64,000 nt of DNA from an uncultured Gammaproteobacteria bacterium. Its GTDB lineage: Bacteria; Patescibacteriota; Patescibacteriia; Magasanikbacterales; GWA2-37-8. The notes under the pieces were generated by a model. It did no database searches. It was not told the origin of the DNA and worked only from the letters and a program-made list of their open reading frames with translations. Below are positions 1 to 17,590 of the stretch, in pieces. A program made the position numbers and the translations under genes. The stretch lies in NCBI GenBank assembly GCA_964536725.1, contig CAZHYJ010000001.1:53018-117017 (forward strand). Reading direction: 5' to 3'. Numbering within the stretch: position 1 is the first letter of the stretch; every line of letters begins with the position of its first letter.

Positions 1-42
1 ACTGCATTGTGTGGTGGTGATGAAATCGTTTGTTGTAATTAA
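1..42 (+). CDS. 3' end of an upstream gene with a Cys-rich C-terminal tail (..TALCGGDEIVCCN*), probably another T4SS-pilin-like paralog
   Basis: Frame 1 reads TALCGGDEIVCCN then a stop. The Cys-rich tail resembles the C-terminus of the next gene (..CADKACCKAQ*). Partial at the window edge. Confidence 0.3.
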   Translation, partial: TALCGGDEIVCCN

Positions 43-48
43 TATTTA

Positions 49-549
49 TTGATTATTATGAAAAAATTTCTTTTATTACTATCATTTGGTCTCATTCTTC
101 TCCCTTTTGCTGTCTCTGCCCAATGGGGATCGGCGGGAAGCAAGTTACAAACAGTTGGCAATCAAACCGGTTTGCAGGCTAATCTAGAGACATCTGTTGG
201 TACAATTATCGCCAGCGTATTGGCTTTAGTTGGTACGATATTTTTAATACTCACTGTCTATGCTGGTATCTTGTGGATGACGGCGAGTGGTAGTGAAGAA
301 AAAGTAACTAAAGCAAAAAATATTATTACCGCAGCGATTATCGGTTTGGTAATTACAATGGCTGCTTATGCGATTACCAGTTTTGTAACTAATAGGTTGA
401 GTGGGGGTGGTTCTGTATCAGTGACTGACGCAGCTAGCTGTGCTGCTGCCGGCGGTGTTTGTAGTGTTAATTCTGGATGTACGGATGTATCACCAGATTT
501 AAAACAAATTGGCACTTGTGCTGATAAAGCCTGTTGTAAAGCTCAATAA
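49..549 (+). CDS. T4SS pilin-like protein (TrbC/VirB2-like topology), paralog 1, with a short Cys-rich C-terminal tail
   Basis: Signal peptide then two hydrophobic helices split by the conserved loop ..YAGILWMTASGSEEKVTKAK... The last 40 residues carry 8 Cys. Motif shared with the next three genes. Confidence 0.6.
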   Translation: MIIMKKFLLLLSFGLILLPFAVSAQWGSAGSKLQTVGNQTGLQANLETSVGTIIASVLALVGTIFLILTVYAGILWMTASGSEEKVTKAKNIITAAIIGLVITMAAYAITSFVTNRLSGGGSVSVTDAASCAAAGGVCSVNSGCTDVSPDLKQIGTCADKACCKAQ

Positions 550-566
550 GTTTTTTAATATTTTTT

Positions 567-974
567 ATGAAACTAATAAATAAAATAATATTAAGCATCC
601 TGTTTTCCGTGAGTGTCTTGTTTTTTGCCGCCCCAGTTTTTGCTCAGCCAAAAATCAACGAACTAACCCCTGGTGTGGCGGCTCAGGCGGGGTATAGTAA
701 AAGTGACGCCAGTGAAACTGCACTTTCAGAAAGAGTGGGTGGAATTATCAAAGTGGCGATGACTTTTGTTGGTACAATATTTTTGGTGTTAACTGTCTAC
801 GCTGGGTTTTTGTGGATGACGGCGAGTGGCAATGAAGAGCAAGTTAAAAAAGCAACCGGCATATTGAAAATGGCAGTTATTGGGTTGATTATAGTCTTGG
901 CGGCCTACGGCATTACGACTTTTGTGGTGAATTATATGGTGAGTAATGCACAGGGTACAGTAGTTGGAAAATAA
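567..974 (+). CDS. T4SS pilin-like protein (TrbC/VirB2-like), paralog 2
   Basis: Signal peptide and the conserved core ..LTVYAGFLWMTASGNEEQVKKA.. with two TM helices. Tandem with paralogs 1 and 3. Confidence 0.6.
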   Translation: MKLINKIILSILFSVSVLFFAAPVFAQPKINELTPGVAAQAGYSKSDASETALSERVGGIIKVAMTFVGTIFLVLTVYAGFLWMTASGNEEQVKKATGILKMAVIGLIIVLAAYGITTFVVNYMVSNAQGTVVGK

Positions 975-989
975 TTATCTTTTAATATT

Positions 990-1460
990 ATGCGAAAATT
1001 TTTTGTCTGTTTATCCGTTGCCTTAGTCTTTTTGGGAAGTGCGTTTTTTTTGACGATGGCACAAGCGCAATCTGACACTCAGTCTGAGATTACCAAGCAA
1101 CTGCAGGCAGCTGGCGGGGACAAAGGTGCTGGGTATGGGGTGGCGCAAGATCCACGCTTGATCGCTGCCAACATTGTGCGCACAGCGTTGGAATTTTTGG
1201 GAATAATATTTATCGTTTTGACAATGTATGCTGGGTTTTTGTGGATGACTGCTGGTGGTAATGAAGAAAAAGTAACCAAAGCAAAAACATTATTATTTCA
1301 AGCAGTTATCGGTTTGGCGATTATTCTTGCCGCCTATTCTATCACTTTGATGGTGGTTAGATTGGTCACTGGTAAATGGACAGATTTTGAGAATACGGAC
1401 TATATTATCCAGCAACCAAGAATAGAATGCGGGTTGCCCGGTCAACCACAGTGTCCTTAA
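990..1460 (+). CDS. T4SS pilin-like protein (TrbC/VirB2-like), paralog 3
   Basis: Signal peptide and the conserved core ..LTMYAGFLWMTAGGNEEKVTKAK... The C-terminus has CGLPGQPQCP. Confidence 0.6.
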   Translation: MRKFFVCLSVALVFLGSAFFLTMAQAQSDTQSEITKQLQAAGGDKGAGYGVAQDPRLIAANIVRTALEFLGIIFIVLTMYAGFLWMTAGGNEEKVTKAKTLLFQAVIGLAIILAAYSITLMVVRLVTGKWTDFENTDYIIQQPRIECGLPGQPQCP

Positions 1461-1467
1461 AAAATTA

Positions 1468-1490
1468 CCCTCCTTTAAAAGGAGGGTTTT
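1468..1490 (+). terminator. Rho-independent terminator after pilin paralog 3
   Basis: Hairpin CCCTCCTTTAAAAGGAGGG followed by TTTTGAATTTT. Confidence 0.5.
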
Positions 1491-2640
1491 GAATTTTAGT
1501 ATGTTGAAAAGAATTGGTATATTTTATGTCAACGCTGGTGGTGGTCATAGCGGTACGGCCAAGGCTTTAGCGCGTGAAATTACCGAAAAATATGCCGATA
1601 TTGCCGAGCCTGTTTTGGTTGATGCGGGTGCGAATAGTGGTAGATTTTCCCATTGGATATTGACCAAAGGATATGGGTTATGGACAAACAGCAGTCATTT
1701 TATTTTGCTCTGGTGGATTTTTTATTGGGCGAGCCAATTTTTGTGGGTCAGACGTATTTGGGTGAAAATGTTTCGCAATCAAAAGCATGTGAACAAATTA
1801 GTAAGAGATGGGCGTTTTGATATTGTGATTTCTCTATATTTTTTCATCACTCCACCGTTGGCAAAGGCGGTAAAAAGCATTAGTCCGCAGACGGAAGTTT
1901 GGTCGGTGGTGACCGATCCTTTTACAGTGCCAAAAATTTGGTTTTATGAAAAAAATGTTAAATATTTTGTTTTTTCCGAGTTGGCAAAAAAGATGGCATT
2001 GTCCGAATGTATTGTGGAAGAAAATATTTCAGTAGTGGCGCCGGTGATTAATAATAAATTTTTACAGGCACGTGGATTAGATAAAAATGTGGTGCGAGAA
2101 AAATTGGGTTTACCGTTGGATAAAAAAATAATTTTGGTGGCGGCGGGGGGTGACGGGTTGTTTAATGGAGGTAAGGTTGTTCGAGCGCTAACGAATTTGT
2201 CAGATGATTTTCGGTTGATTGTCGTGTGTGGGCGTGAGCAAAGTTTTCTTGATCAAGTAAATTCGTTAAAAGAAAAGTATCCTGATAAAATATTATGGGC
2301 AATGGGTTTTGCAGAAAATATGGAGGAATTAATGGTGGCAGCCGATCTGGTTGTGGGTAAAGCTGGGCCAGCAGTAGTGTTTGAATCTTTAACGATTGGG
2401 CGTCCATTAGTTTTGACCAATTATATCTGGGGACAAGAAAAAGGCAATCGTGATTTTGTGGTGGAAAACGGTGTGGGGAAGTATGAACCACATACCGACC
2501 GGCTGGCGCAGACGGTGAGTTATTTTTTTGCTAATGAGGCGGAGTACAAAAAAACTATGGAAAAAATTGGAGCACTATCATTCCCAATCGGGACGGATGA
2601 GATATTGGAAAAAATACTAAAAACAAAAGAGGCTGAATAA
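1489..2640 (+). CDS. Family 28 glycosyltransferase (MGDG synthase / UgtP-like diacylglycerol glycosyltransferase)
   Basis: N-terminal ..FYVNAGGGHSGTAKALAREI.. is typical of the MGDG-synthase N-domain. A C-terminal GT28-like domain follows (..VAAGGDGLFNGG.., ..VVGKAGPAVVFESL..). Confidence 0.55.
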   Translation: MNFSMLKRIGIFYVNAGGGHSGTAKALAREITEKYADIAEPVLVDAGANSGRFSHWILTKGYGLWTNSSHFILLWWIFYWASQFLWVRRIWVKMFRNQKHVNKLVRDGRFDIVISLYFFITPPLAKAVKSISPQTEVWSVVTDPFTVPKIWFYEKNVKYFVFSELAKKMALSECIVEENISVVAPVINNKFLQARGLDKNVVREKLGLPLDKKIILVAAGGDGLFNGGKVVRALTNLSDDFRLIVVCGREQSFLDQVNSLKEKYPDKILWAMGFAENMEELMVAADLVVGKAGPAVVFESLTIGRPLVLTNYIWGQEKGNRDFVVENGVGKYEPHTDRLAQTVSYFFANEAEYKKTMEKIGALSFPIGTDEILEKILKTKEAE

Positions 2641-2668
2641 AATCAGTCTCTTTTTTGAAAATCCGGGT

Positions 2669-2744
2669 GGGGGTGTCCTACGGGAGTTGAACCCGTTTTG
2701 TCGGTTCCACAAACCGACGTAATAACCGTTATACCAAGGACACC
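2669..2744 (-). tRNA. tRNA-His (anticodon GTG)
   Basis: Hand-folded cloverleaf. Extra G(-1) paired to discriminator C; anticodon loop TTGTGGA; T-arm ACGGG-TTCAACT-CCCGT; CCA encoded. Confidence 0.85.
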
Positions 2745-2838
2745 CCTACCAGGACTTTGTTGCAGTTCTGATTATATCGCATTATGTATTTTTTTTCAAC
2801 TGTCTGTGCTTCGCAGCGCCGTAGCTTTAGCGAAGGTG

Positions 2839-2910
2839 TGCCCCCAGTAGGAATCGAACCTACAACTCAACCTTAGAAGGGTCGTGTTTTATCCATTAAA
2901 CTATAAGGGC
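2839..2910 (-). tRNA. tRNA-Arg (anticodon TCT)
   Basis: Hand-folded. Acceptor GCCCTTA/TGGGGGC with G-U pairs; anticodon stem CGACC/GGTTG; loop CTTCTAA; T-arm GTAGG-TTCGATT-CCTAC. Confidence 0.85.
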
Positions 2911-2937
2911 AATTCAACAAGAGGATTATATTGTATT

Positions 2938-2966
2938 TTTACAAATAAATCAAGTTATGGTATTAT
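2938..2966 (+). promoter_or_regulatory. Sigma70-like promoter for pilin paralog 4 (-35 TTTACA, 17-nt spacer, extended -10 TGgTATTAT)
   Basis: The hexamers are seen directly; the start codon lies about 30 nt downstream. Confidence 0.45.
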
Positions 2967-2994
2967 TTAGAGGTAAATAAAAGTTATAACCTGT

Positions 2995-4071
2995 ATGAAA
3001 AAATGTTTTCTTCTAATTTTGCCGTTATTTTTATTGACGGTTTTTTTGTTTGGTTTAGCGCCGGTTAGTGCGCAAAATTTTGGATTAGAGGTGACGGGTG
3101 CTAAGGCAGGTTACAATAAAACCGACACGCCGGAGTCTATAACAACAACTGTTATAAATTCTGCACTGGCTTTGGTGTACATCGCTTTTTTTATCTTAGT
3201 ACTATACGCGGGTATTCGCTGGATGACGGCCCAGGGCAATGAAGAGCACGTTACTAAGGCAAAAAACATATTAGAAGCAGCGATTATTGGTGTAGTGATT
3301 ATCTCTGCGGCTTATGCGATTACGAATTTCATATTAGGCAAGGTAGGAGCGAATGGTGGAGGGGGTGGAGGTGGTGAGCCAACTATTCCTAGCGTATGTT
3401 CCGGTCCATCACTTGTTTGCTATGATTTGTCTCAGTGTGCTACGGCGGGCGGTGAAGAAGTATCAGGAAAAACCTGTGCTGGTTCTGATGAGATTTGTTG
3501 TGATATTGGTACTGGAGAAAGCACTGATATTTGTGAGTCTGATTCGGATTGTGGAGAGCAGCATTCCTGTTATTATAGTAAATGCAGACTGAAGTGTGGT
3601 AGTAATAATGATTGTGAAGATGATCAGGATTGTACAGGGGGTGTTTGTATAGAAAGTGTTGATAAGTGTGCGATAGCGAATTGTGATTCTAATCAAAATT
3701 GTGATCCAGAGACAGGCGCTTGTACTTACAAAACAGGTTGTTGCTTGACAGGTTGTACCGTGCAAACAAGTGATAAATGTTCAGGAAATTTTGCTCCAGA
3801 CAAACAGTGTTCCGAAGTGATAGGTTGTGGTTTGTCTAATTGTCAGCCAAATAATGCTGGATTAATTAGTTTTTGTAAAAAACAAGAAGTGAAAGACGAT
3901 TTTGGGCTTGTGGTATGTAAAACGGGCAATGAGACTTATTGTTTTTCTGGTATGCAAAAAGAGTGTTTACCAAATTCTTCGTTTAACCTAAATACTTTTT
4001 GTGCAGCGCGGGGACAGAGCACCTGTGATATTGGGTTTGGTGATCCTTCGATCTGTATTTGGAAATATTAA
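2995..4071 (+). CDS. T4SS pilin-like protein (paralog 4) fused to a roughly 230-aa hyper-cysteine-rich C-terminal domain
   Basis: The N-terminal 120 aa match paralogs 1-3 (..LYAGIRWMTAQGNEEHVTKAK..). A GGGGGGGG linker follows, then about 50 Cys in repeated 4-Cys units (C-x5-C-x5-C-x4-C). Confidence 0.6.
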   Translation: MKKCFLLILPLFLLTVFLFGLAPVSAQNFGLEVTGAKAGYNKTDTPESITTTVINSALALVYIAFFILVLYAGIRWMTAQGNEEHVTKAKNILEAAIIGVVIISAAYAITNFILGKVGANGGGGGGGEPTIPSVCSGPSLVCYDLSQCATAGGEEVSGKTCAGSDEICCDIGTGESTDICESDSDCGEQHSCYYSKCRLKCGSNNDCEDDQDCTGGVCIESVDKCAIANCDSNQNCDPETGACTYKTGCCLTGCTVQTSDKCSGNFAPDKQCSEVIGCGLSNCQPNNAGLISFCKKQEVKDDFGLVVCKTGNETYCFSGMQKECLPNSSFNLNTFCAARGQSTCDIGFGDPSICIWKY

Positions 4072-7812: not shown

Positions 7813-7832
7813 AAGTCGTCAAATAAAACTTG

Positions 7833-7906
7833 CGGGTATAGTATAACGGCTATTATGCGTCCTTGCCAAGGACGAGTCACGGGTTCGACTCCCGTTACCC
7901 GCTCCA
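7833..7906 (+). tRNA. tRNA-Gly (anticodon GCC), CCA encoded. Its 3' end overlaps the 3' end of the serine recombinase gene on the opposite strand.
   Basis: Acceptor GCGGGTA/TACCCGC; anticodon stem CGTCC/GGACG; loop TTGCCAA; T-arm ACGGG-TTCGACT-CCCGT; then TCCA. Confidence 0.85.
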
Positions 7907-9483
7907 ATGTGAATAAACAGCTTGAAAAGAGCTGTTTTTTCTTTTATCTTCGCAATAAATTGTCGGTTCTAACATGGCCTTTTGAAGGACTTCATCCTTT
8001 AAACCTTCACGCAAAGTTAAGTATGGTTTTTGCAGTTCAATATGCAGTTTTTTGTCCTTTAAATAAAAGTTCTGACCGAGCGTTCGTAAAATATCGGTTT
8101 TAATCTGTATGTCTCCGGCCTCAAATTTGATTTTGGCATAGGTGGCAAACTCAAAAGCACCTTCCGTTAATTCTACCCATTCATTGACCCCTGTCTCAAT
8201 TTCTCTTATCACACCCTCAATTCGCGCCTTCTCCGTCATTAAGGAATTTTTCTGTTCTCTATATTCGTTATCACTTAAAAATGTTCGGTCAGCGTTACTC
8301 GGTGATATAAACAAATTTATTAAATTATCTATGCTTTTAAGGCAGTTGTTATAATTTTCTTGTTGAGCCTTTAATACAATCTCCCGGTTCTTTTCCTCAA
8401 TAATATTTCTGTTCCTTAATATTTCAACAGCCCAATGCAAAAATTCTTCCGGTATAGTAATGGCATCTAGATAGGTAGAAATTTGTTTTAGAATTTCCTC
8501 ACTGGTTATTGATTTTTGGCTGCATGTCTTACCACATTTATTATGCGAGCAATGGTGGTAAAGATGTCTTTTAATACTTCCGTCCTTCATCTTTTTAAAT
8601 TTTTCTTCGGCAGTTATCATACCATCGCATTCAGCACAACGGATTATTCCATTAAAAGGTAACCTTTTATATTTAGGCCGTGGTTTTCCGCTCTGCCCTA
8701 ATATTTTTTGTGCCAAATCAAACTGTTCTTTCGTGATCATTGGTTCATGTTTGCCTTCGTATATTTTTCCATTATAAACAAATTCACCACAATAAAAAGA
8801 ATTGGTAAATATTTTATACATTGCACTTAAACATAATGGCTGGCCATCTTTGTTTCTCAATCCATACTCATTGCATACTATCTGATGAATTTGATTAACG
8901 GAGTAGTTGCCGGTTAGCAATAACCCCCAGGCTTTTTTTACCAACTCAAATTTTGATTCGTCTTTAAATAATCTTTTTTTACCTTTTTCTCCTGCTTTAT
9001 CGTTTAGATATCCGATAGCAGCAATGCCCGGTCTCCATCCTTTTTCAACTTTTGTATTCATTCCTCGCTTAACATCCTTGCTTAAGTCAAGGACATACTG
9101 GTTGGCCATGCCAAACTCAACAGCCATCATCAATATGTTGTCGGTGGGTAAGTATTCTCTACCAGGCGTAACAATTGATTTTATTATCCCTTGTTGTAAA
9201 AGCCATTGTATCTCACCGCCATCAATTGGATTTCTGGCTAGACGGTTTAATTTCCAACAAACCACACCATCTGCTTCGCCGCGTTTTATCATTTTCATCA
9301 TTTCATCATATTGTGGTCTACCTGGTTTCTTTGCCGACATTGATTCGCCAAATGTTTTGATAATATTTAAGCCTTTTCTTTTAACTTCATATCCTAACTC
9401 CTTTTTTTGATCATCAATAGATTGAACTTGACGATCTTCGGAATCAGTAGATTTTCTACAATACATGATATAGCGTAATGACA
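7895..9483 (-). CDS. Large serine recombinase (resolvase-type N-domain, recombinase domain and zinc-ribbon), integrase of an integrated element
   Basis: N-terminal ..YCRKSTDSEDRQVQSIDDQ.. holds the catalytic-Ser region. ..VVCWKLNRLARNPIDGGEI.. and a Cys cluster (..CAECDGM...HHCSHNKCGKTC..) follow. The ORF is open to 9541; the likely start is MSLRYIMYC at 9483. Confidence 0.8.
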
Positions 9484-9510
9484 TATAATTTAATTTTAAT
9501 AATAAATAAA

Positions 9511-9630
9511 AGGACGGTCTGGTTGACCCAACTCTATACATTCCGAAGGAATGATATCGCTGGCAGACCGCCCTTTTATGGCAGTGATATCAAAAAATAA
9601 AACCTTCGGATAGATTATAGGTTGGGTCAA
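9511..9630. repeat. Nested inverted repeats just upstream of the recombinase start: GTTGACCCAAC/GTTGGGTCAAC, CCGAAGG/CCTTCGG, GGACGGTCTGG/~GGCAGACCGCC
   Basis: Seen directly. Candidate operator or recombinase-binding site. Confidence 0.4.
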
Positions 9631-9706
9631 CGGATATATTATAGCATATGATTTTAGTTATTTCTATATTATCTGGACTTAAAAAAGTAAACCAAAGTAA
9701 ACAGAA

Positions 9707-10105
9707 TTATGGCGGTCTTTCAAACCCTTGAATCTCTCTCAACAGGCGATGTCCTTGTTGTTTTGCTGTTTTGGGACTAAATCCTGCCCGAATTGCCGCC
9801 TCTTTGGCATTGCCTAATGTTGCTATGTAGTTATGCAAAAAACGTAGTCTCCGCAAACAAGGCCCATTAAACGCTGGAAGGCGCTTCACAATTGTGTTGT
9901 TCATGACATAGTCTGCAATATAAAAAAATACTAATTTATTTGGTTTGCAAAAGATAAGATCCCTTATAAAACGTATCTCTTGAATATTAAACCTTGGTAG
10001 TTTTTTAGGTTTTTTAAAATCGTCTGATAGATATAATGTATTTAAACACTCTATAAGAAATTTGGTGCTATAAGTCGTTTCCTTCTTGGTGTGGGTTTGT
10101 TTCAT
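9707..10105 (-). CDS. Protein with a C-terminal terminase-small-subunit-like HTH
   Basis: ..IATLGNAKEAAIRAGFSPKTAKQQGHRLL.. resembles the Terminase_2 N-terminal DNA-binding motif. Confidence 0.4.
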   Translation of the reverse strand: MKQTHTKKETTYSTKFLIECLNTLYLSDDFKKPKKLPRFNIQEIRFIRDLIFCKPNKLVFFYIADYVMNNTIVKRLPAFNGPCLRRLRFLHNYIATLGNAKEAAIRAGFSPKTAKQQGHRLLREIQGFERPP

Positions 10106-10250
10106 AGAGATAGTTTTTAATAATTAAATTTAAAATATCCGTCATTACCGAACCTTTGGAGGCGGCAACAACTTTAAGTTCCTTATGCAACTCCTTATCA
10201 ATACGAACTTGTTTTGTATTGTTTTTATTATTTTGTAACTTTGTTGACAT
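10068..10250 (-). CDS. Ribbon-helix-helix (CopG/Arc-like) DNA-binding protein
   Basis: MSTKLQNNKNNTKQVRIDKELHKELKVVAASKGSVMTDILNLIIKNYL is an RHH-like beta-strand followed by two helices. The ORF is open upstream only because of the G/C-rich leader. Confidence 0.45.
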   Translation of the reverse strand: MSTKLQNNKNNTKQVRIDKELHKELKVVAASKGSVMTDILNLIIKNYLYETNPHQEGNDL

Positions 10251-10262
10251 ATTATTACCATC

Positions 10263-10334
10263 ACCCTTCCCTAGATAACCCTCTCCCTCCCTGCACTCCC
10301 TCAACCCGAATGTCCTACTTGTCCTGTCCCTCCC
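10263..10334 (-). promoter_or_regulatory. G-tract-rich leader (GGGAGGGAGAGGG..GGG..GGG on the minus strand) upstream of the RHH gene; potential G-quadruplex or i-motif
   Basis: There are at least six C3 tracts on the plus strand within 70 nt, in otherwise AT-rich DNA. Confidence 0.35.
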
Positions 10335-10548
10335 GTAAAGAGTCTCGTCTTTACTCAAAGGTTTGGTTAGTTTGGTCATTTTAAGTGAAAAATTTTTCAC
10401 TCATTCGGTATATCGGTCGTTTGGTCGGTCGCCCATAATCTCTGCTAAATTTTATTTTATATCGTTTTAGCCAGCGCTATGGGTGCGCCCTCATACGATA
10501 AGGTTCAAAGTCCTGATCTATTTCTTTGTTAGAAATAAGTCGGGGCTT

Positions 10549-10812
10549 TTAACTTTGGGATATGTTGTTAAGCCATTTTAAATTAGCCTGTGGCACAAAA
10601 TTTAAGATAGCATTCGGCATAGCAGCCCCTCCGCTCACAAACTCTCGGCCAGCTATTTTGTTCTTCTTGGTCTCTCTCATCCAGCGACATTTGTCTTGTG
10701 TGCTACCGCTTCTTAAATTTAAATCAGGATCCAGTGGACAAAGATTTTGAGAACAGGAGTTAAAATTTGGGCAATGACGTAAATTATCAACGGCGTTTAA
10801 TTCTTTTGTCAT
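10549..10812 (-). CDS. Hypothetical small Cys-containing protein (CPNFNSCSQNLCPLD...C)
   Basis: ORF only. Possible zinc-binding motif. Confidence 0.3.
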   Translation of the reverse strand: MTKELNAVDNLRHCPNFNSCSQNLCPLDPDLNLRSGSTQDKCRWMRETKKNKIAGREFVSGGAAMPNAILNFVPQANLKWLNNISQS

Positions 10813-10814
10813 AT

Positions 10815-11000
10815 TTATGTATTATTTTTTGGAGTTAAGCTATGTTTATTATGTTCTGCTTTGGTTATGGGTTGAAAAACTAACTCAACAAGCCGGAGAA
10901 GTTTGATCCCGATTTCACACGCTTCTTTCTTGGTTGTTTCTTTGCCATGTCGTTTGCAAAGAGTTTGAAATTCTAGGATTTCGTCCTCGGACAAGATCAT
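10815..11000 (-). CDS. Hypothetical small protein
   Basis: ORF only. Tightly spaced with its neighbours on the same strand. Confidence 0.3.
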   Translation of the reverse strand: MILSEDEILEFQTLCKRHGKETTKKEACEIGIKLLRLVELVFQPITKAEHNKHSLTPKNNT

Positions 11001-11082
11001 AATTAAAAATCACACTGGGTTATAGTGTGATTATATATGACTTAATTTTGAGTAGTGTGACGATAACTGGCACCAATTAAAA

Positions 11083-11856
11083 TCAGTCACCAAATAACAT
11101 TTTTCTCTTTTTTTGAATTACAGAGTAGATTTTTCTTACAAGTGAGGCTTTACTTGTTTTTTTAAAAAACTTTTTAGCTATTTCTTTACTGGTGTATTGC
11201 TCTAACTTTTTATCTACTTTATATCCATTTTTTTTCTTTATTTTTTCATATTCAGTTTCACTATACTGTTTTTTTAGTATTGATAGATACATACTGGGGT
11301 GTTCAACCCACTCTTTTTTTCTTTTCCGCATTTCCTCTTCAATTTTTATAGCTAAATCTATATCAATTTTGGGTCTTAAATCCAGCGTTACCTTTGATGG
11401 CAAAAATTCTTTTTGTAATTGTAGTAATTTTTTGGTCGCTGCTCTAATTTCTTCTTTTGTTAGCGATGCATATGCTTTAATTGATACCCACTTATTAGAT
11501 CTGTTTCCGCTAGGGTCTGGGCCAAGAGAAACAGCAAAGTTAATTTTAGGAGCATCTATTTTATTAGAAATAATAAAATTTTTTATATGAATCAAAAAAT
11601 TATACCGTAATTGATATTTTTTTGTTAAACTTTCTGCATTATAAAAAAGACCGCTCTCATCCAATAATGATCTTTTGTTTGGGGGAAGCGCGTTTAGGTT
11701 TTTGCCAAGCCAATGTTTTTTTAGTATTTCATTATCAAATCCATGTACAGGAATTTTTATTTTTTTTCTGATCTTTTTAACATCCTCCAAAAATTTTGGA
11801 TGACTTGCGAGCAGTTTCATTATAAACAAATTTTCTTTATATGTTTTTTCAAACAT
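11083..11856 (-). CDS. Hypothetical Lys-rich protein
   Basis: ORF with coherent composition. No recognised motif. Confidence 0.4.
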   Translation of the reverse strand: MFEKTYKENLFIMKLLASHPKFLEDVKKIRKKIKIPVHGFDNEILKKHWLGKNLNALPPNKRSLLDESGLFYNAESLTKKYQLRYNFLIHIKNFIISNKIDAPKINFAVSLGPDPSGNRSNKWVSIKAYASLTKEEIRAATKKLLQLQKEFLPSKVTLDLRPKIDIDLAIKIEEEMRKRKKEWVEHPSMYLSILKKQYSETEYEKIKKKNGYKVDKKLEQYTSKEIAKKFFKKTSKASLVRKIYSVIQKKRKMLFGD

Positions 11857-11883
11857 ATGGTAATTTTAAAAATTATACCTTTG

Positions 11884-11912
11884 TTGACTTGAGGGTAAAT
11901 AAGCTGTAATAT
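11884..11912 (+). promoter_or_regulatory. Promoter (TTGACT-17-TAATAT) reading into the structured RNA region and the first cassette
   Basis: The hexamers are seen directly. Confidence 0.45.
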
Positions 11913-12024
11913 TATGATATTATAATTTAGTATATATTAGCTTAACTACAAAGACAAATTACTAATTACAATACCTAACCCCTAGAGACTTCTGGCGATT
12001 CTTTTCTAGGATATGGTAATCAAA

Positions 12025-12137
12025 CCCTACGCGAATAAAGATGGTCTTCTGACCAGCACTTATTCGCGTAGGTTCACTCCCGAAAGGGGGCGAGGCAGGT
12101 CCGAAAGGATTTGTCGCTGTGTCGGGAGGCCTTTTTT
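12025..12137 (+). ncRNA. Candidate structured RNA: a 14-bp hairpin, then a helix with GAAA tetraloop carrying the SRP-RNA-like motif CAGGUCCGAAAGGA, then GCCUUUUUU
   Basis: The local sequence is GC-rich. Paired arms are CCCTACGCGAATAA/TTATTCGCGTAGG and CTCCCGA/TCGGGAG. A 10-nt direct repeat CCTACGCGAA lies at 12026 and 12167. SRP RNA identity is a guess. Confidence 0.25.
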
Positions 12138-12180
12138 GTTCTCTCGGCGAGCCCTAATTATTAAATCCTACGCGAAAAAT

Positions 12181-12903
12181 ATGAAGAAATATCTTCTAAT
12201 TTTATTCTTGGTAGCAATCATGTTTCCCTCGGTAGCTTTTGCTTCTTGGTGGAATCCTTTTTCTTGGAAAATTTTTAATTCCTCTCACAAAAAAGAAGTA
12301 GTGCTACAGGCACAGGCGGTTAATAATAAACCAGTAGTTAGTCCAACGGTAGAAAACAAAAAACTACAAAATCAAAATTTAAATTTAGAAAAAAAACCAA
12401 AAGAAATCGCTAATGATGAATGGTATAATGTTACAATTTTAACTCCTCCGAACAGAAAATCAGATGATCCACCTGGGGGAATGAAGTTTGAGGTTAAACT
12501 TAAAAATCTAAATGTAACCCCGTTTATTACAAATCTAGGTATCTGTGGATGTACTCTTTCTGATCTGAAAGGGAAAACCTACAGAACTGAATTTTCCGGT
12601 GAAGGTAGATTAAAAAAGGCTTTATTACCAGGAGAGGAAGCCAGCTTAAATTTTTTTAGTACGTTCAGTCATAGAGAATTTGTTAAAAATGGTGAAGTTG
12701 AGTGTCGCGGGGAAAATACTTTAGATTTTATTATGTTGGATTGGAGTAAAAATATAGTTAAGTGTATATATAATCAATCCGGTGAGTGTGCATGTGAAGA
12801 TCTTGGCCCAATGCATGTTGTGAATTGTGATTTCAGTATTTCAACAGATGGCAAGCAAGCTTCTTGCTGGGGCAAATATCCGACGACAGTAAAAATAGAT
12901 TAG
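12181..12903 (+). CDS. Secreted hypothetical protein (signal peptide MKKYLLILFLVAIMFPSVAFA)
   Basis: The ORF is open from 12013, but the N-terminal 56 codons overlap the structured RNA. The likely start is M12181. Confidence 0.5.
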   Translation: MKKYLLILFLVAIMFPSVAFASWWNPFSWKIFNSSHKKEVVLQAQAVNNKPVVSPTVENKKLQNQNLNLEKKPKEIANDEWYNVTILTPPNRKSDDPPGGMKFEVKLKNLNVTPFITNLGICGCTLSDLKGKTYRTEFSGEGRLKKALLPGEEASLNFFSTFSHREFVKNGEVECRGENTLDFIMLDWSKNIVKCIYNQSGECACEDLGPMHVVNCDFSISTDGKQASCWGKYPTTVKID

Positions 12904-12928
12904 GATTTATCCAAATTGCACCAAAATT

Positions 12929-13903
12929 ATGGATGTTAAACAAATCAATGAGTACGCTGAAAAATTGTGTAGTGTTATTAAACTCTATTACCTAAAGGAT
13001 TATTGTGATAATGATAAAAACTGGTTTAGTGCCTGCCAATTATCAATGCGTAATTTTGTTTTGTCTCGTAATGGGTGGCTTAAAAGTGATAAATCTGAAG
13101 ATACTTTGGTATTTGCTGGCAAACACCACTTAACGGTAAATATACTCTACAGCGGCTCACCGGGTGAGCTCATGCTAAATACAGCAATCGGTATTGCCAA
13201 AGCAGAGTTAATTGATAATTTTAACACCAATGGAAAAAATACGCTTGAAGACACTGTAACAAACATTGAAAAATGTGTTAGAGGTCAGGATTGGATAATA
13301 CCATTTGTGCGTAATAAACATTTTACCCAAAACAATAATAAAAATATGAACAAACACACCTCTATTCTTCGTTGGCTCTCAATAATACCAGTGGTTTTTA
13401 CAATTGTTTATTTATCGGATTGGATTGTAAGATTTATTTTATGGTTTTTGCGTTTACCAATAATTATATTTGAAAAGATTTTTGGTTTTGGTTCCGGCCC
13501 AATTGGAAAATTGTTTGATAATATAACAAATTTTCTTTTTGGACTTAATAGTATTGGCACTTTGACCGTAATTTTTTCTGGTCTACTAACAATGTCAGCA
13601 ATTGTTTATCTTTTGGCCATTATTATACCTAAAGACAATAAATCTACCGCACGAACATTGGCAATAATTTTATTGACTTTTTTCGCTATTAGTTTAGTTG
13701 CCACTTTTTTATCTAACAGAATGACAGGAGAAGTCATACTATATACAATCGTTTTAACAACGGGAGCTATTTTGGGGTGGAATTCAATTAAAAAAGAGAC
13801 AGAAAAAGAAAGGGAAAAACATGAGTATCTGGTTCAAAAATATATTAAGCGTATTTTTATTTTTACAACTCTGTTTACGGTATTTTTGTTATTTTTTTCT
13901 TGA
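12929..13903 (+). CDS. Hypothetical protein with a soluble N-domain and a C-terminal multi-TM region
   Basis: ORF. Several hydrophobic helices lie in the C-terminal half. Confidence 0.5.
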   Translation: MDVKQINEYAEKLCSVIKLYYLKDYCDNDKNWFSACQLSMRNFVLSRNGWLKSDKSEDTLVFAGKHHLTVNILYSGSPGELMLNTAIGIAKAELIDNFNTNGKNTLEDTVTNIEKCVRGQDWIIPFVRNKHFTQNNNKNMNKHTSILRWLSIIPVVFTIVYLSDWIVRFILWFLRLPIIIFEKIFGFGSGPIGKLFDNITNFLFGLNSIGTLTVIFSGLLTMSAIVYLLAIIIPKDNKSTARTLAIILLTFFAISLVATFLSNRMTGEVILYTIVLTTGAILGWNSIKKETEKEREKHEYLVQKYIKRIFIFTTLFTVFLLFFS

Positions 13904-13953
13904 GATAAGGTAGGTTCATTATTTGGAGTGTGTTATAGTGGTACATTAACTTT

Positions 13954-14445
13954 ATGAAAGGTAAGCACGAAAAATATATAGTATTATTCTTTTTCGGCGT
14001 TGTCGCAATAGCTGGTATTGTTATTTATAACAACAATAAAATAAACAGCTTTTCAAATTCACTTACCGTAAACGCACAAGCCAATAATAAAGCAGTAGAA
14101 CAACAAGTAAATAATGGCTGGGAAGACTGTGAAAATTATAAAGATATAGAAATTTTTAAAAAACCAAAACAGATTGTCTGGTTAGCCAAAATGAATGGTT
14201 GTCTAGAGAGTTGCCAAGGAGGGTCTTTTACCAGTATAGAAGCAGGAGTTGAATACCCAAGGTTTGCCGCCTATCTACCAGATGGCGAAAAAATACCCGA
14301 GGAGTATAAGGATAAAAATGATCTAGTTTTAAAGATAGTCGGCGAATGGATCGGCATTGGCGACGATTATTACAATACCGTTTTTAGTGGTCAATGCGTG
14401 CCTATAATTACAATTAAAAGCGTTACACCGGCAGCAAACATTTGA
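13954..14445 (+). CDS. Hypothetical membrane-anchored protein
   Basis: N-terminal TM helix; Cys-containing ectodomain. Confidence 0.45.
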   Translation: MKGKHEKYIVLFFFGVVAIAGIVIYNNNKINSFSNSLTVNAQANNKAVEQQVNNGWEDCENYKDIEIFKKPKQIVWLAKMNGCLESCQGGSFTSIEAGVEYPRFAAYLPDGEKIPEEYKDKNDLVLKIVGEWIGIGDDYYNTVFSGQCVPIITIKSVTPAANI

Positions 14446-14491
14446 TAGATTTGGATATCTGTATAATCGTAGTAACTAAAGCCTAAAAAAT

Positions 14492-14785
14492 GTGAAAAAA
14501 ATATTTCTCTATATATTTTGGACGATGATGCTAATATTTATCGCGGTAGCGCTAATTTATGGGTTTATAACTTATTCCATCTTTAAGGTAGATTCAAGTG
14601 GGCTGATTTATGATGGTCTTGGCAGACAACTTTATGAAGCGCCTCTTTGGGCGAAGTTTTTATTATTGAACGAACACCGGTGGCCTGGTTTATTTTGGAC
14701 AATATTTGATAGAGCAGCATGTGTTTGTTTTGGCAGTTTGGCATATATAATGCATAAACTTGCAACAAAAATGAGCATTGAATAA
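14492..14785 (+). CDS. Hypothetical small membrane protein
   Basis: Two predicted TM helices. Confidence 0.4.
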   Translation: MKKIFLYIFWTMMLIFIAVALIYGFITYSIFKVDSSGLIYDGLGRQLYEAPLWAKFLLLNEHRWPGLFWTIFDRAACVCFGSLAYIMHKLATKMSIE

Positions 14786-14803
14786 AAATTTGTATCAAGT
14801 ACT

Positions 14804-15289
14804 ATGCCCATCCTCTCAACGTTTTACACCATAGTAATTCCAATTGAAAACTTAAAAAGAGTCTTAACTGATGAGGAATTACAAAAAGCCTTGGCCGAAA
14901 AGAATTATCTGACCATGGTTAGGTTTGATGATAATTTATATAGTGAATCCACAATGGGCCCTTATGATAATGAAATTGTTATTAAGTATTGGGAAAGCAA
15001 GGGTTTAATTCCGACAGAAATAGTTAATGGAGAAGAGCGTTGGAAAGATCTGTGTCTGGTGGCTGCACCCGATAATCAGCCGACAGCACCTTGTGATTGG
15101 GTTGAAATCTTCTCTGTTGATGAATATAACAGCTATATTAACTTGAAAGGAAAACCAAGAGATCTTCTAGTAAAACAAACATCTTCGGTTGAAGAATTTG
15201 CGAAAGCATTAAAATACACGAAACAAGAATTGCAGCAACTCCTTCACAACAGGCCTATAACAAAAAAAGTCTGTTTTAGAGATTATTGA
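14804..15289 (+). CDS. Hypothetical cytoplasmic protein
   Basis: ORF only. Confidence 0.45.
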   Translation: MPILSTFYTIVIPIENLKRVLTDEELQKALAEKNYLTMVRFDDNLYSESTMGPYDNEIVIKYWESKGLIPTEIVNGEERWKDLCLVAAPDNQPTAPCDWVEIFSVDEYNSYINLKGKPRDLLVKQTSSVEEFAKALKYTKQELQQLLHNRPITKKVCFRDY

Positions 15290-15353
15290 GTGTCTTCTAA
15301 ATTAGGTTGACTTACCCATGTTGTTAGGCTAACATAAAGCCGTAAAACACTTT

Positions 15354-15749
15354 ATGAAAAAGGCCTATCTAACTTTTCTATTTTTATTCATTTTTCTTCC
15401 ATCGGTAACCTTGGCCCACCCCGGACGCACGGATTCTTCTGGTTGCCATACTTGTCGCACAAATTGTGCTAAATGGGGGCTTTCTACGGGCGAATATCAT
15501 TGTCATAGGGCAAAGACACTCCCGCAGCCAAAAGAGCCCATTAAAAGCCATTTTAGCGAGACTGGTGGGTATATCACGCCGGCACCGGAGTATAAACAAC
15601 CTGCCACTAATATTAAAAAGGCAGTTACGACAACCGCCGAAGTTAAGCCGGTAGTAAAACAGGTTGAAGTTAAATCAACTGCTAAACAAGCAGAGGTTAA
15701 AGTGAGCGAATCGTGGTTTACTAAGTTGGTTAGATTTTTGTTTAAATAA
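15354..15749 (+). CDS. Secreted protein with a Cys/His motif (..GRTDSSGCHTCRTNCAKWGLSTGEYHCH..) and a Lys/Val-rich repetitive tail
   Basis: Signal peptide; GxCHxC...YHCH metal-binding-like motif. Confidence 0.45.
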   Translation: MKKAYLTFLFLFIFLPSVTLAHPGRTDSSGCHTCRTNCAKWGLSTGEYHCHRAKTLPQPKEPIKSHFSETGGYITPAPEYKQPATNIKKAVTTTAEVKPVVKQVEVKSTAKQAEVKVSESWFTKLVRFLFK

Positions 15750-15750
15750 T

Positions 15751-16482
15751 ATGGAAAAAATTAGCCTTATAGCACAAGTATTCTTAGTTTTAATAACTAT
15801 AGCGGGCTGGTTTGCCGTCTACTACCTAAATTTAAAACAACAACGGAAAAATTTGGAAGATAACGCAAAATATAGGGTTTATGAAAAATTTTGGTCGTCA
15901 AGAGGACTTATATATAGCACACATAATCAATTAAGTAGCCAAATATTTGTGGGCCCGCCATTTATTCTAATGGATTCCACAAAAATTCTTGGGCAAGTCA
16001 CGAACAGGCAGGAAGATGTGTGGAAAGGACAACAGAACGCTATACAGATCTTTTTTGAATATCGGAATAAATTAGCGTCGTTAAATGAAAATTTTAATGA
16101 CACATATCTACAATTTTGGAGAGATGTTGAAATGTGGTTACATGTAATGCCAGACCTTGAACAATCGGCAAAGATTCTTTTTTCTGAATATACTATTACA
16201 AAAGATTTAGTTTACAAACATATTAGTTATTTACAGATTCTTGACGCTCAAAAATGGGAGACATTTAATCGCAACGATATCAAAGAAAGAGCAGAGACGG
16301 TATGGGGTAGTATGTCTAACCTCAGTGCTTACACGGAGGATTTTATGGCGTTAATTCACAACGAGCTTGTTGGTCCGTTATTTAAGTACAAAAAAACTGT
16401 CAGGGTCCCAATGGATCAGAGATATAAAGTGTTAACTAAAGATGGTTTGAAAATTATTGATAGTGCACATAGCATAAAATGA
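15751..16482 (+). CDS. Hypothetical protein with an N-terminal TM helix
   Basis: ORF only. Confidence 0.45.
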   Translation: MEKISLIAQVFLVLITIAGWFAVYYLNLKQQRKNLEDNAKYRVYEKFWSSRGLIYSTHNQLSSQIFVGPPFILMDSTKILGQVTNRQEDVWKGQQNAIQIFFEYRNKLASLNENFNDTYLQFWRDVEMWLHVMPDLEQSAKILFSEYTITKDLVYKHISYLQILDAQKWETFNRNDIKERAETVWGSMSNLSAYTEDFMALIHNELVGPLFKYKKTVRVPMDQRYKVLTKDGLKIIDSAHSIK

Positions 16483-16710
16483 TGATTAAAAGTTATCAAT
16501 ACAAAACTTCGTTTGAGTAGTGGTTATTTGGCACCATTTTTGCATGATGGATGATGGTGTTGCTTTAATGTAAAAAGGGTTGTATACTATAGATAGTGAA
16601 TATTCTTCAATTTTACATGATGTGTTATGTGGTGGGTTCTTTTTAGTGAGTAGGCTTTATAAATATTGACATTTTTTAGTAATTGTGTTTAAATGTTATA
16701 CTAAACTTAT

Positions 16711-17121: not shown

Positions 17122-17125
17122 GAAT

Positions 17126-17377: not shown

Positions 17378-17437
17378 AATAAAAATAAAATACACCTATT
17401 TTGTGAGTGTATTTTTTAATTTTGTATAAAAAATATA

Positions 17438-17590
17438 GTTCTAACATCCTCTACTAAGGAGCTCACTTTTCGTAAAACACCAAAACTCTGCTAAGTCTGG
17501 CAGAGTTTTTGGTTCTGATATTTGGCATAAGGTACATATATTTACTACCCCTTTGGAGAAAAAATGGCAAGAGTAGAACCGATTGAAAAA
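17438..17590 (+). repeat. Cassette-boundary repeat, copy 1 (long form): GTTCTAACATCCTCT..AAGGAGCTCA box, then hairpin AAAACTCTGC/GCAGAGTTTT with a T-run
   Basis: Near-identical over about 135 nt to the copy at 19598. It contains a tiny SD-ATG ORF (MARVEPIEK..). Confidence 0.6.

What the first reader, a model, noticed from the sequence alone, without database searches (positions are those of the whole stretch)
1..4071. Tandem array of at least four T4SS-pilin-like paralogs with a conserved core and divergent Cys-rich C-terminal tips
Four complete genes, plus the tail of a fifth at the window edge, share an almost invariant loop (YAG(I/F)(L/R)WMTA(S/G/Q)GNEE(K/Q/H)V(T/K)KAK) between two hydrophobic helices. 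This is the TrbC/VirB2 conjugative-pilin topology. No conjugation ATPase or coupling protein lies in the window. The mature C-termini differ sharply: an 8-Cys tail, none, a 2-Cys tail, and a 230-aa Cys-rich domain. This pattern fits a pilus or fibre whose variable tips mediate attachment, under diversifying selection.
Basis: partly seen in the sequence, partly recalled or inferred. Interest (0 to 1): 0.7.

Follow-up and report, generated by a model that had tools for sequence, protein, structure and literature searches.

The report
VirB2-like pilin gene array, Patescibacteria
The window holds the last part of a nine-gene array of VirB2-like (T4SS_pilin family) membrane-hairpin proteins from an ultra-small Patescibacteria bacterium; such arrays are already published, but here most copies carry fast-evolving, disulfide-rich outer domains and the nine copies keep the same order across many species.

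Summary
Window ORFs 58-549, 567-974, 990-1460 and 2995-4071 all pass the Pfam gathering score for PF18895 T4SS_pilin. Bases 1-42 are the end of a fifth copy, shown by an identical overlapping contig. That contig shows the array really has nine paralogs.

The kind is already published: arrays of 2-11 VirB2-like pilin genes in Patescibacteria (Wang 2023; Quinonero-Coronel 2025).

What I add:
- The nine paralogs are positional orthologues, in the order 1-9, across dozens of Magasanikbacteria-type genomes.
- The plain paralog 4, which lies outside the window, is the most conserved and the most TrbC-like.
- The outer domains have about 8% Cys, and the count is even in 170 of 173 Cys-bearing tails. 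They are only 11-44% identical to the nearest relative, against 70-94% for the cores.
- A diglucosyl-DAG-synthase-like glycosyltransferase sits inside the array in most loci.
- No VirB4 or coupling protein lies in the window or within 10 kb of 80 related arrays. However, 6 of 7 related genomes carry VirB4 elsewhere.

Homology to true VirB2 is supported only below threshold, and fold searches could not discriminate. Diversifying selection is not shown.

Verdict: a new variant of a known kind, of moderate interest.

The parts
1..42 (+). 3' end of paralog 5 (215 aa; the rest lies upstream of the window, at L001 4598-5245). It has a C-terminal tail of 91 aa with 8 Cys that ends ...CGGDEIVCCN.
   Evidence: PF18895 26.9 bits
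58..549 (+). Paralog 6 (163 aa from the ATG at 58; the ORF opens at a TTG at 49). It has a signal peptide, a hairpin core, a Gly/Ser linker and a 6-Cys module (C-x6-C-x5-C-x12-C-x4-CC).
   Evidence: (38.3 bits)
567..974 (+). Paralog 7 (135 aa), core only with no Cys. In the AlphaFold model helices 45-85 and 90-129 form the hairpin.
   Evidence: (41.0 bits)
990..1460 (+). Paralog 8 (156 aa), with a short C-terminal tail of 30 aa holding 2 Cys.
   Evidence: (27.1 bits)
1467..1487 (+). Terminator-like G+C hairpin followed by a T-run, directly after paralog 8. Its 3' arm holds the AGGAGG ribosome-binding site of the glycosyltransferase gene.
   Evidence: sequence
1501..2640 (+). Glycosyltransferase (379 aa) with MGDG_synth and Glyco_tran_28_C domains. 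Its best NCBIfam match is diglucosyl diacylglycerol synthase, far below the equivalog cut-off. A homologue lies within the span of the pilin genes in 31 of the 43 related loci that have one.
2668..2744 (-). tRNA-His(GTG), lying between the glycosyltransferase and paralog 9. It is part of the locus but not of the system.
2838..2910 (-). tRNA-Arg(TCT), likewise part of the locus but not of the system.
2938..2966 (+). Promoter-like site (TTTACA-17-TATTAT with an upstream TG), 29 nt before paralog 9.
   Evidence: consensus match only
2995..4071 (+). Paralog 9 (358 aa), the core plus a 241-aa C-terminal domain with 32 Cys. The first module repeats the 6-Cys pattern of paralog 6. Codons 83-166 form a recombination patch when compared with a second strain.
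   Evidence: (34.1 bits)

Best explanation
This region is the downstream part of a chromosomal nine-gene array of VirB2-like pilin-family proteins (Pfam PF18895). The organism is a Patescibacteria (CPR) bacterium of the Magasanikbacteria/ABY1 lineage.

Shown or predicted from sequence:
- Each protein has a cleavable Sec-type signal peptide.
- Each then has two long hydrophobic helices joined by a short loop (xGNEEKVxKAK).
- Extra domains lie before helix 1 (paralogs 1-3) or after helix 2 (paralogs 5, 6, 8, 9).
- These domains are about ten times richer in Cys than other proteins, almost always carry an even number of Cys, and evolve much faster than the core.

Inferred by analogy with VirB2/TraA:
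- The hairpin inserts with both ends outside the cell and the loop inside, so every extra domain is extracytoplasmic and disulfide-bonded.
- The subunits are extracted from the membrane and assembled by a VirB4-type (MPF-FATA-like) type IV secretion machine encoded elsewhere in the genome.
- The product is a pilus-like fibre or conduit. The plain, most conserved paralog 4 would be the main building block. The domain-bearing paralogs would be specialised minor subunits that present variable, disulfide-stabilised surfaces to the host cell.

The fixed 1-9 gene order across species argues that the paralogs have distinct, non-redundant roles in one assembly. The embedded diglucosyl-DAG-synthase-like glycosyltransferase may make a glycolipid partner of the fibre or modify the subunits. 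That last point is speculation.
For: Family:
- PF18895 is passed by all four window proteins, and by four of the five upstream paralogs; paralog 2 scores 20.5 bits, below the 26.6-bit cut-off.
- The family has 41,507 cluster representatives at E<=1e-3.
- The nearest loci are Magasanikbacteria MAGs.

Link to VirB2:
- The Pfam TrbC model gives E 3.8e-5 for paralog 4 and E 0.011 for paralog 9, both nearly full length.
- hhalign of the family profile against 120 VirB2 sequences gives P 2.7e-4 and probability 41%. The core aligns to mature VirB2 residues 53-121 with the WM motif in register. A reversed control gives P 0.02.
- All nine orthogroup profiles hit the same VirB2 region and each beats its reversed control.
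- The NCBIfam model for a Mycoplasma ICE pilin-like conjugal transfer protein gives E down to 4e-9.

Fold: a hairpin with pLDDT above 90.

Outside location of the extra domains:
- C-terminal tails have 7.8% Cys against a background of 0.77% and 0.18% in the cores.
- The Cys count is even in 170 tails, odd in 3 and zero in 33.
- All nine proteins of this organism have even counts in the mature outer parts.
- The loop has 2-3 K/R residues.

One assembly of distinct subunits:
- The order 1-9 recurs in dozens of species.
- Natural single chains exist with 2-11 hairpins behind one signal peptide. By the Rosetta-stone argument this suggests the hairpins sit side by side.

Paralog 4 as main subunit: it has the highest conservation (median 65%, up to 84%), no large extra domain, and the only strong Shine-Dalgarno sequence.

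Fast-evolving outer domains: 11-44% identity to the closest relative, against 70-94% for the cores and 86-92% for neighbouring housekeeping genes.

VirB4 in the lineage: 6 of 7 related genomes are VirB4-positive in published Table S1. In one of them VirB4-TrsD-VirB3 are genes 794-796.

Literature: VirB2-like pilin arrays are essential in Southlakia and widespread in Patescibacteria.
Against: - No pilus has been seen in any Patescibacterium carrying these genes. The reviews call it a possibility.
- Similarity to true VirB2/TrbC stays below curated thresholds.
- Searching the family profile against PDB sequences found no pilin.
- No VirB4, VirB6 or coupling protein lies in the 64 kb window or within 10 kb of the arrays in 80 related loci.
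- Whether the source genome itself has VirB4 is unknown.
- Large domains on most subunits may be hard to fit into a tightly packed T4SS-type pilus.
- Covalently fused multi-hairpin chains fit a static membrane or tube structure as well as a dynamic pilus.
Confidence: 0.55

Rival explanations
1. Surface-display anchors rather than a polymer. The VirB2-like hairpin serves only as a two-helix membrane anchor. It holds disulfide-rich adhesin or coat domains on the cell surface of the epibiont, and no T4SS-driven extraction or pilus is involved.
For: - The array is never next to VirB4 in this lineage.
- Most paralogs carry sizeable outer domains.
- The conserved neighbours are envelope genes: a lipoprotein-like solute-binding protein 4 nt upstream of paralog 1, a nucleotidyl transferase and glycosyltransferases.
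- Multi-hairpin fusions would be ordinary polytopic membrane proteins.
Against: - The core is far more conserved than a mere anchor needs: 70-94% identity to the closest relative, with an invariant YAG-WMT-G-EE-V-KA motif.
- About half of the family members in these arrays (345 of 645) have no extra domain to display.
- In other Patescibacteria the same family sits inside T4SS clusters and is essential.
Confidence: 0.2
2. A T4SS-independent membrane complex. The nine hairpin proteins form a hetero-oligomeric channel or scaffold in the cell membrane. It would be linked functionally to the co-operonic solute-binding protein and the glycolipid synthase, for example for uptake or handling of host-derived sugars or lipids.
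For: - The synteny SBP - paralogs 1-8 - glycosyltransferase - paralog 9 is conserved.
- No permease genes lie beside the SBP in L088.
- Fused chains with 12-22 transmembrane helices exist.
- Positional orthology implies a fixed stoichiometric complex.
Against: - There is no precedent for such a complex.
- The family's only detectable relatives are conjugative pilins or pilin-like proteins.
- Synteny with rpsO and pnp shows that neighbourhood here is not always functional.
Confidence: 0.12
3. An antigenic or host-range variation system. The copies would be interchangeable alternatives of one pilin, as proposed for Bartonella and Anaplasma VirB2 paralogs. They would be diversified by duplication and gene conversion so that the cell can switch surfaces.
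For: - The published interpretation of Patescibacteria arrays mentions this.
- The outer domains are hypervariable between species.
- A 250-bp recombination patch in paralog 9 changes the linker and one Cys loop between two strains.
Against: - Each position in the array is an old orthogroup kept in the same order across many species, the opposite of recent duplication and turnover.
- Every copy has its own start codon and signal peptide, and the copies are tightly spaced as in one operon.
- Copies 6-8 are under purifying selection between strains.
- There are no silent or truncated cassettes.
Confidence: 0.06

Closest known systems
VirB2-like pilin arrays of Patescibacteria. Examples are the essential pilin series in the Southlakia epibionticum ML1 T4SS cluster (Wang et al. 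2023, PMC10633639) and the 441 arrays of 2-11 genes surveyed by Quinonero-Coronel et al. 2025 (PMC12102498).
   Same: - Same phylum-level group and same Pfam family (PF18895/PF04956).
- Tandem paralogs, sometimes interrupted by a non-pilin gene.
- Low identity within the array.
- Monoderm host with an MPF-FATA-like VirB4 and no relaxase.
   Different: - This array is not in or near a T4SS cluster. In Southlakia it is inside the cluster.
- It has nine positionally conserved orthogroups.
- Five to seven of the nine carry Cys-rich outer domains of 30-240 aa. I found no mention of such domains in those papers.
- A diglucosyl-DAG-synthase-like glycosyltransferase is embedded.
- In the stored copy of the published Table S3, Magasanikbacteria genomes are listed with only 1-3 VirB2 genes, none flagged as near VirB4.
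Agrobacterium VirB2 / RP4 TrbC conjugative pilins (Pfam PF04956)
   Same: - Signal peptide, two hydrophobic helices and a short loop.
- A G-x-x-W-M motif at the end of helix 1, in the same register.
- Both termini are expected on the outer face.
   Different: - Similarity is below the threshold (best 24.3 bits against a cut-off of 27.9).
- True VirB2 is a single small gene next to virB3/virB4, has no fused domains, and is often cyclised.
- It occurs in a diderm host with an outer-membrane core complex.
Mbov_0395 family pilin-like conjugal transfer protein of Mycoplasma ICEs (NCBIfam NF045849)
   Same: - Monoderm, MPF-FATA-type conjugation context.
- An 80-residue hairpin profile aligns over its full length to the cores (E 4e-9 to 2e-3).
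   Different: - Scores are 18-36.6 bits, below the 40-bit cut-off.
- It is a single gene on a mobile element, not a chromosomal nine-gene array, and has no outer domains.
VirB2 paralog clusters of Bartonella and Anaplasma
   Same: Several tandem VirB2 copies, thought to vary the exposed surface (cited).
   Different: - These are intracellular diderm pathogens with small pilins.
- The paralogs are regarded as variants of one subunit. Here the copies are old, ordered orthogroups.
Type IV pilus major and minor pilin sets (analogy only)
   Same: One abundant plain subunit plus a conserved set of specialised, larger subunits encoded together.
   Different: - The fold and machinery are unrelated.
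- None of the nine proteins has an N-terminal methylation motif.
- A separate N_methyl protein lies upstream of the array in 19 related loci.

Membership tests
Pfam PF18895 T4SS_pilin | Whole-protein HMM score at or above the gathering score of 26.6 bits | tested here: met
   38.3, 41.0, 27.1 and 34.1 bits for the four window proteins; upstream paralogs score 30.6, 20.5 (below the cut-off), 40.1, 44.9 and 26.9 bits.
Pfam PF18895 T4SS_pilin | Signal peptide followed by two hydrophobic helices joined by a short loop | tested here: met
   AlphaFold model with helices 45-85 and 90-129, pLDDT 87-95 in the core; signal peptides with AxA-type sites in all nine.
TrbC/VirB2 conjugative pilins (Pfam PF04956) | HMM score at or above the gathering score of 27.9 bits | tested here: not met
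   the best window protein scores 16.3 bits (E 0.011); paralog 4 scores 24.3 bits (E 3.8e-5).
TrbC/VirB2 conjugative pilins (Pfam PF04956) | Profile-profile homology to authentic VirB2 | tested here: inconclusive
   hhalign P 2.7e-4 and probability 41%, against P 0.02 for the reversed control; the nine orthogroups give P 1e-4 to 0.017, all in the same register. The query VirB2 sequence was validated at 100% identity to an annotated virB2 gene.
TrbC/VirB2 conjugative pilins (Pfam PF04956) | Structural match to solved T4SS pilins | tested here: inconclusive
TrbC/VirB2 conjugative pilins (Pfam PF04956) | Gene lies within or beside a T4SS cluster (virB3/virB4/virB6) | tested here: not met
   None in the 64 kb window. 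None within 10 kb of the arrays in 80 related loci. VirB4 is present elsewhere in 6 of 7 related genomes.
TrbC/VirB2 conjugative pilins (Pfam PF04956) | Polymerises into an extracellular pilus with bound phospholipid | not testable with these tools
   Needs imaging or biochemistry.
Patescibacteria VirB2-like pilin arrays (PMC12102498) | Two or more PF18895/PF04956 genes in tandem, or separated by one non-pilin gene, in a Patescibacteria genome | tested here: met
   eight tandem genes, then the glycosyltransferase and two tRNA genes, then the ninth; the closest loci are Magasanikbacteria (Patescibacteria group).
Patescibacteria VirB2-like pilin arrays (PMC12102498) | High divergence within the array (published mean 25%, maximum 54% identity) | tested here: met
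   40-47% whole-protein identity among the four window copies; 25-61% identity in the 69-aa core among paralogs 2-9.
NCBIfam NF045849 Mbov_0395 family pilin-like conjugal transfer protein | Score at or above the 40-bit cut-off | tested here: not met
   the best scores are 36.6 and 36.0 bits (E 3e-9 and 4e-9).
Type IV pilins (T4P; N_methyl PF07963) | N-terminal prepilin methylation motif | tested here: not met
   No N_methyl hit for any of the nine.

The most novel reading that the evidence does not exclude
A monoderm, ultra-small bacterium builds a heteromeric, 'decorated' T4SS-type fibre from nine positionally conserved VirB2-like subunits. One plain major subunit (paralog 4) forms the shaft. 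The others carry disulfide-knotted outer domains fused to either end of the hairpin and supply a fast-evolving host-contact surface. The embedded diglucosyl-DAG-synthase-like enzyme would provide the lipid partner of the fibre. Natural single-chain fusions of 2-11 hairpins would then be covalent versions of the same polymer. This would be the first T4SS pilus with fused adhesin-like domains and a defined multi-subunit composition.
Probability: 0.25. Interest if true: 0.75.

Novelty: new variant of a known kind. Interest (0 to 1): 0.42.

Why it matters
The function of the Patescibacteria T4SS is an open question. It is essential for epibiotic growth in the one species tested (PMC10633639). Whether its VirB2-like proteins form a pilus is unknown (PMC12857230).

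This locus adds concrete, testable features:
- A fixed set of nine subunit types argues for a composite structure rather than antigenic variants.
- The disulfide-rich outer domains are the obvious candidates for host recognition and for antibody or nanobody tagging.
- The plain paralog 4 is the subunit to look for in filaments.
- The embedded glycolipid-synthase-like gene suggests a lipid to look for.

It also shows that surveys centred on virB4 neighbourhoods under-count such arrays in the ABY1/Magasanikbacteria lineage.

Tried and rejected
Searches that gave nothing useful:
- A profile search against PDB sequences gave only spurious repeats in designed 'Pizza' propellers.
- The afdb50 fold library was not available.
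- The AlphaFold model of the 358-aa protein has mean pLDDT 54.7. Only the hairpin and two short Cys modules (about 139-172 and 200-245) reach about 70-76. It was not used for fold search.
- Pfam found no known domain in any Cys-rich tail, in this organism or in four orthologues. The beta-defensin hit (E 0.088) is not significant.
- A Tandem Repeats Finder run found no DNA-level tandem repeat, so the paralogy is old.
- A scan of 2.9 million viral contigs found no relatives, so the family is not phage-borne.

Search for VirB4 near the arrays:
- Recurrent neighbour families and ten large singleton ORFs were checked. None is VirB4 or a coupling protein. One locus has a PilB-type T2SSE ATPase.

Ideas rejected:
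- Recent duplication under diversifying selection is rejected for copies 6-8 and by the positional orthology.
- The multi-hairpin database proteins are not read-through artefacts. They have one signal peptide and no internal ones.


Full report
**What is in the sequence**

Bases 1-4071 carry four complete + strand genes: 58-549, 567-974, 990-1460 and 2995-4071. Each protein has an N-terminal signal peptide, two long hydrophobic stretches, and the shared motif YAG(I/F)(L/R)WMTAxG(N/S)EExV(T/K)KA(K/T).

Between the third and fourth genes lie a 379-aa glycosyltransferase (1501-2640) and two minus-strand tRNA genes, His and Arg. Downstream come rpsO, a NYN-domain gene and pnp.

Bases 1-42 encode ...TALCGGDEIVCCN*. 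An independent contig from a public run (L001) is identical to the window over 2760 bp. It shows that this is the end of a 215-aa fifth paralog.

Four more paralogs precede it (214, 312, 306 and 154 aa). They follow directly after a lipoprotein-like solute-binding protein gene. The array therefore has nine members, which I call p1 to p9. The window holds the end of p5, then p6, p7 and p8, the glycosyltransferase, and p9.

- The first tail has 6 Cys, not 8.
- The real loop is about 4 residues.
- The array is larger than was visible from the window.

**Family**

All four window proteins pass the gathering score of Pfam PF18895 'T4SS_pilin'. Four of the five upstream paralogs pass as well; p2 scores 20.5 bits.

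A profile of the four finds 41,507 cluster representatives at E<=1e-3 among 1.84 billion proteins, so this is a very large family. In species-representative genomes the closest loci are Candidatus Magasanikbacteria and related Patescibacteria MAGs.

An AlphaFold model of p7 built on 78 sequences gives mean pLDDT 80.6, with values in the 90s in the core. It shows a hairpin of helices 45-85 and 90-129.

**Is it really VirB2-like?**

Direct tests give sub-threshold but consistent support:
- The Pfam TrbC/VirB2 model matches p4 at E 3.8e-5 (24.3 bits; cut-off 27.9) and p9 at E 0.011, both nearly full length.
- I validated an Agrobacterium VirB2 sequence against annotated plasmids and collected 120 relatives.
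- hhalign of the family profile against them gives P 2.7e-4 and probability 41%. The core aligns to mature VirB2 residues 53-121 with the G-x-x-W-M motif in register. A reversed control gives P 0.02.
- Each of the nine orthogroup profiles hits the same VirB2 region and beats its reversed control.
- NCBIfam's model for a Mycoplasma ICE 'pilin-like conjugal transfer protein' matches at E down to 4e-9, again below its cut-off.

Fold searches were not informative, because a helical hairpin matches thousands of chains. The PDB sequence search found nothing real.

**What is already known**

Wang et al. [quoted passage not shown]

Quinonero-Coronel et al. 2025 surveyed 3,035 Patescibacteria genomes using PF04956 and PF18895. 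They reported 441 arrays of 2-11 VirB2-like genes, in tandem or split by a non-pilin gene, with about 25% mean identity.

A 2025 review calls a pilus in these monoderms an 'intriguing possibility'. The kind of feature is therefore published.

**What this locus adds**

*(a) Positional orthology.* With a core HMM I found 8-14 family members in most of the 80 related loci whose contig holds the whole region. Assigning each to its best reference paralog gives the order 1-2-3-4-5-6-7-8-9 in dozens of different species.

p4 is the best conserved, with a median of 65% and up to 84% identity in the core. It is also plain, with no large extra domain, the closest to TrbC, and the only gene with a strong Shine-Dalgarno sequence.

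*(b) Outer domains.* p1-p3 carry their extra domain before helix 1. p5, p6, p8 and p9 carry it after helix 2. The two positions are equivalent if both termini face outward, as in VirB2 (established topology of VirB2/TraA pilins; inference here).

Across 645 family ORFs:
- The 206 C-terminal tails of at least 25 aa have 7.8% Cys, against 0.77% in neighbouring genes and 0.18% in the cores.
- The Cys count is even in 170 tails, odd in 3 and zero in 33.

This is strong indirect evidence for paired disulfides and an extracytoplasmic location. A 6-Cys module (C-x-C-x-C-x-C-x-CC) recurs in p6, p9 and orthologues: 26 tails match, against a mean of 6.5 after shuffling.

*(c) Rate of change.* I compared this organism with its closest sequenced relative (L088).

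| Sequence class | Identity |
|---|---|
| Housekeeping neighbours | 86-92% |
| Pilin cores | 70-94% |
| Outer domains | 11-44%, with large length changes |

Orthologues of p9 with 60-80% identical cores have unalignable tails of 100-340 aa.

*(d) Selection between strains.*
- Copies p6-p8 show 26 synonymous against 3-4 non-synonymous codon differences, none in the tails.
- In p9, all 31 differing codons and one indel against a second strain fall in codons 83-166. This looks like a recombination patch. Its amino-acid changes sit in the linker and one Cys loop.

*(e) Context.* The conserved synteny is nucleotidyl transferase, solute-binding protein, p1-p8, glycosyltransferase, p9, rpsO, NYN, pnp. 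The best named match of the glycosyltransferase is diglucosyl diacylglycerol synthase. The alignment is full length but scores 136 bits against a 500-bit cut-off.

*(f) No T4SS ATPase nearby.* None lies in the window or within 10 kb of the arrays.

Published tables list VirB4 in 6 of the 7 Magasanikbacteria genomes that are also in my locus set. In GW2011_GWA2_37_8, VirB4, TrsD and VirB3 are genes 794-796, while a single 'VirB2' is gene 380. The stored copy of that table lists only 1-3 VirB2 genes for such genomes, so these remote arrays seem to be under-recorded.

*(g) Fusions.* The database holds natural single chains with 2-11 hairpins behind one signal peptide. This suggests that the hairpins sit side by side in one assembly.

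**Most likely mechanism**

Shown or predicted from sequence:
- Sec-type signal peptides.
- Hairpin cores.
- Even-numbered, Cys-rich domains at the ends of the hairpin.
- Ordered orthogroups.

Inferred:
- The hairpins insert with the loop in the cytoplasm.
- A VirB4-type machine encoded elsewhere extracts them and assembles them into a fibre or conduit.
- p4 is the main subunit, and the domain-bearing paralogs are specialised subunits that present a fast-changing, disulfide-stabilised surface to the host cell.

Speculative: the glycosyltransferase may supply a glycolipid partner. T4SS pili are protein-phospholipid polymers (established for the F pilus and the T pilus).

I put about 0.55 on this overall. 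I put about 0.9 on the narrower statement that these are PF18895-family paralogs of the published kind.

**Rivals**
- The hairpin is only a membrane anchor for surface-displayed domains (0.2).
- The proteins form a T4SS-independent membrane complex tied to the solute-binding protein and the glycolipid synthase (0.12).
- The array is an antigenic-variation set (0.06). This is disfavoured by the positional orthology and by purifying selection.

**Verdict**

The finding is real and its family assignment is right. The array as such is a known kind. The new aspects are the fused disulfide-rich outer domains, the nine-fold positional orthology, the separation from virB4 and the embedded glycolipid-synthase-like gene. 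They make it a new variant of moderate interest. Diversifying selection and an actual pilus remain unproven.

Noticed in passing
L001 49-1443 (immediately upstream of the window): A solute-binding protein gene (SBP_bac_1, with a lipoprotein-like signal ending ...LGFGC) stops 4 nt before paralog 1. A homologue occurs in 52 related loci, upstream of or among the pilin genes. In L088 no ABC permease genes lie next to it. It may be a functional partner of the array.
   Followed up: partly
window 1501-2640: The glycosyltransferase embedded in the array is only 68% identical to that of the closest relative, while neighbouring housekeeping genes are 86-92% identical. Its best named match is diglucosyl diacylglycerol synthase. 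A GT2 glycosyltransferase, a DUF2079 membrane protein and a nucleotidyl transferase recur near related arrays.
   Followed up: partly
window 3241-3492 (codons 83-166 of the gene at 2995-4071) compared with L087: All 20 synonymous and 11 non-synonymous codon differences and one indel between two strains fall in this 84-codon patch. The rest of the gene is identical and the glycosyltransferase differs at only 2 codons. This is the signature of a recombination import across helix 2, the linker and the first Cys module.
   Followed up: partly
proteins P0112 (1147 aa), P0038, P0027 (555 aa), P0025 (232 aa): These are natural single chains with 11, 8, 6 and 2 pilin-like hairpins. The three whose sequences I read (P0112, P0027, P0025) have one signal peptide and no internal ones. 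About 43 of the top 150 family hits have two or more cores.
   Followed up: partly
L001 4006-4025 (upstream of paralog 4): Only paralog 4 has a strong Shine-Dalgarno sequence (AAAGGGGGTGA). The other eight have AT-rich leaders without one.
   Followed up: no
window 7832-22700: This is a low-GC island (33-37% against about 42%). It begins with a large serine recombinase gene (7895-9541, minus strand) that abuts tRNA-Gly(GCC), and it holds a small-terminase-like gene (9707-10105). It is absent after pnp in the close relative L088 and is probably an integrated mobile element or prophage.
   Followed up: partly
window 17437, 18515, 19597, 21124, 22214 (+ strand): Five copies of an intergenic repeat (A/G)GTTCTAACATCCTCT..AAGGAGCTCA occur here; the two longest copies also contain a hairpin. 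They separate single genes (two of unknown function, a radical SAM gene and a Fic gene) in a cassette-like layout.
   Followed up: no
window 22693-30900: A second large serine recombinase gene (22693-24483, minus strand) overlaps tRNA-Met (22781-22855, plus strand). It is followed by a CHC2 primase zinc-finger gene and several ORFs with no family match. This looks like a second mobile island.
   Followed up: no
window 38542-43077: A class II (B12-dependent) ribonucleotide reductase gene is interrupted by an intein with a LAGLIDADG homing endonuclease domain.
   Followed up: no
loci L009, L011-L013, L023-L025 and others: Many MAG records titled 'uncultured Gammaproteobacteria bacterium' carry the same Magasanikbacteria-type array and synteny. 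Those titles look like placeholder or wrong taxonomy.
   Followed up: no
supplement Table S3 of PMC12102498; L021: The stored copy of the table lists one VirB2 gene for Magasanikbacteria GW2011_GWA2_37_8. Its contig LBTN01000021 carries eight family members by my HMM. PF18895 hits in the rows I saw are all flagged as near virB4.
   Followed up: partly
related loci such as L044 550-2349: A 599-aa protein with a type IV pilin N-methylation motif and a CarboxypepD_reg domain recurs upstream of the array in 19 loci. One locus (L047) has a PilB-type ATPase downstream.
   Followed up: no
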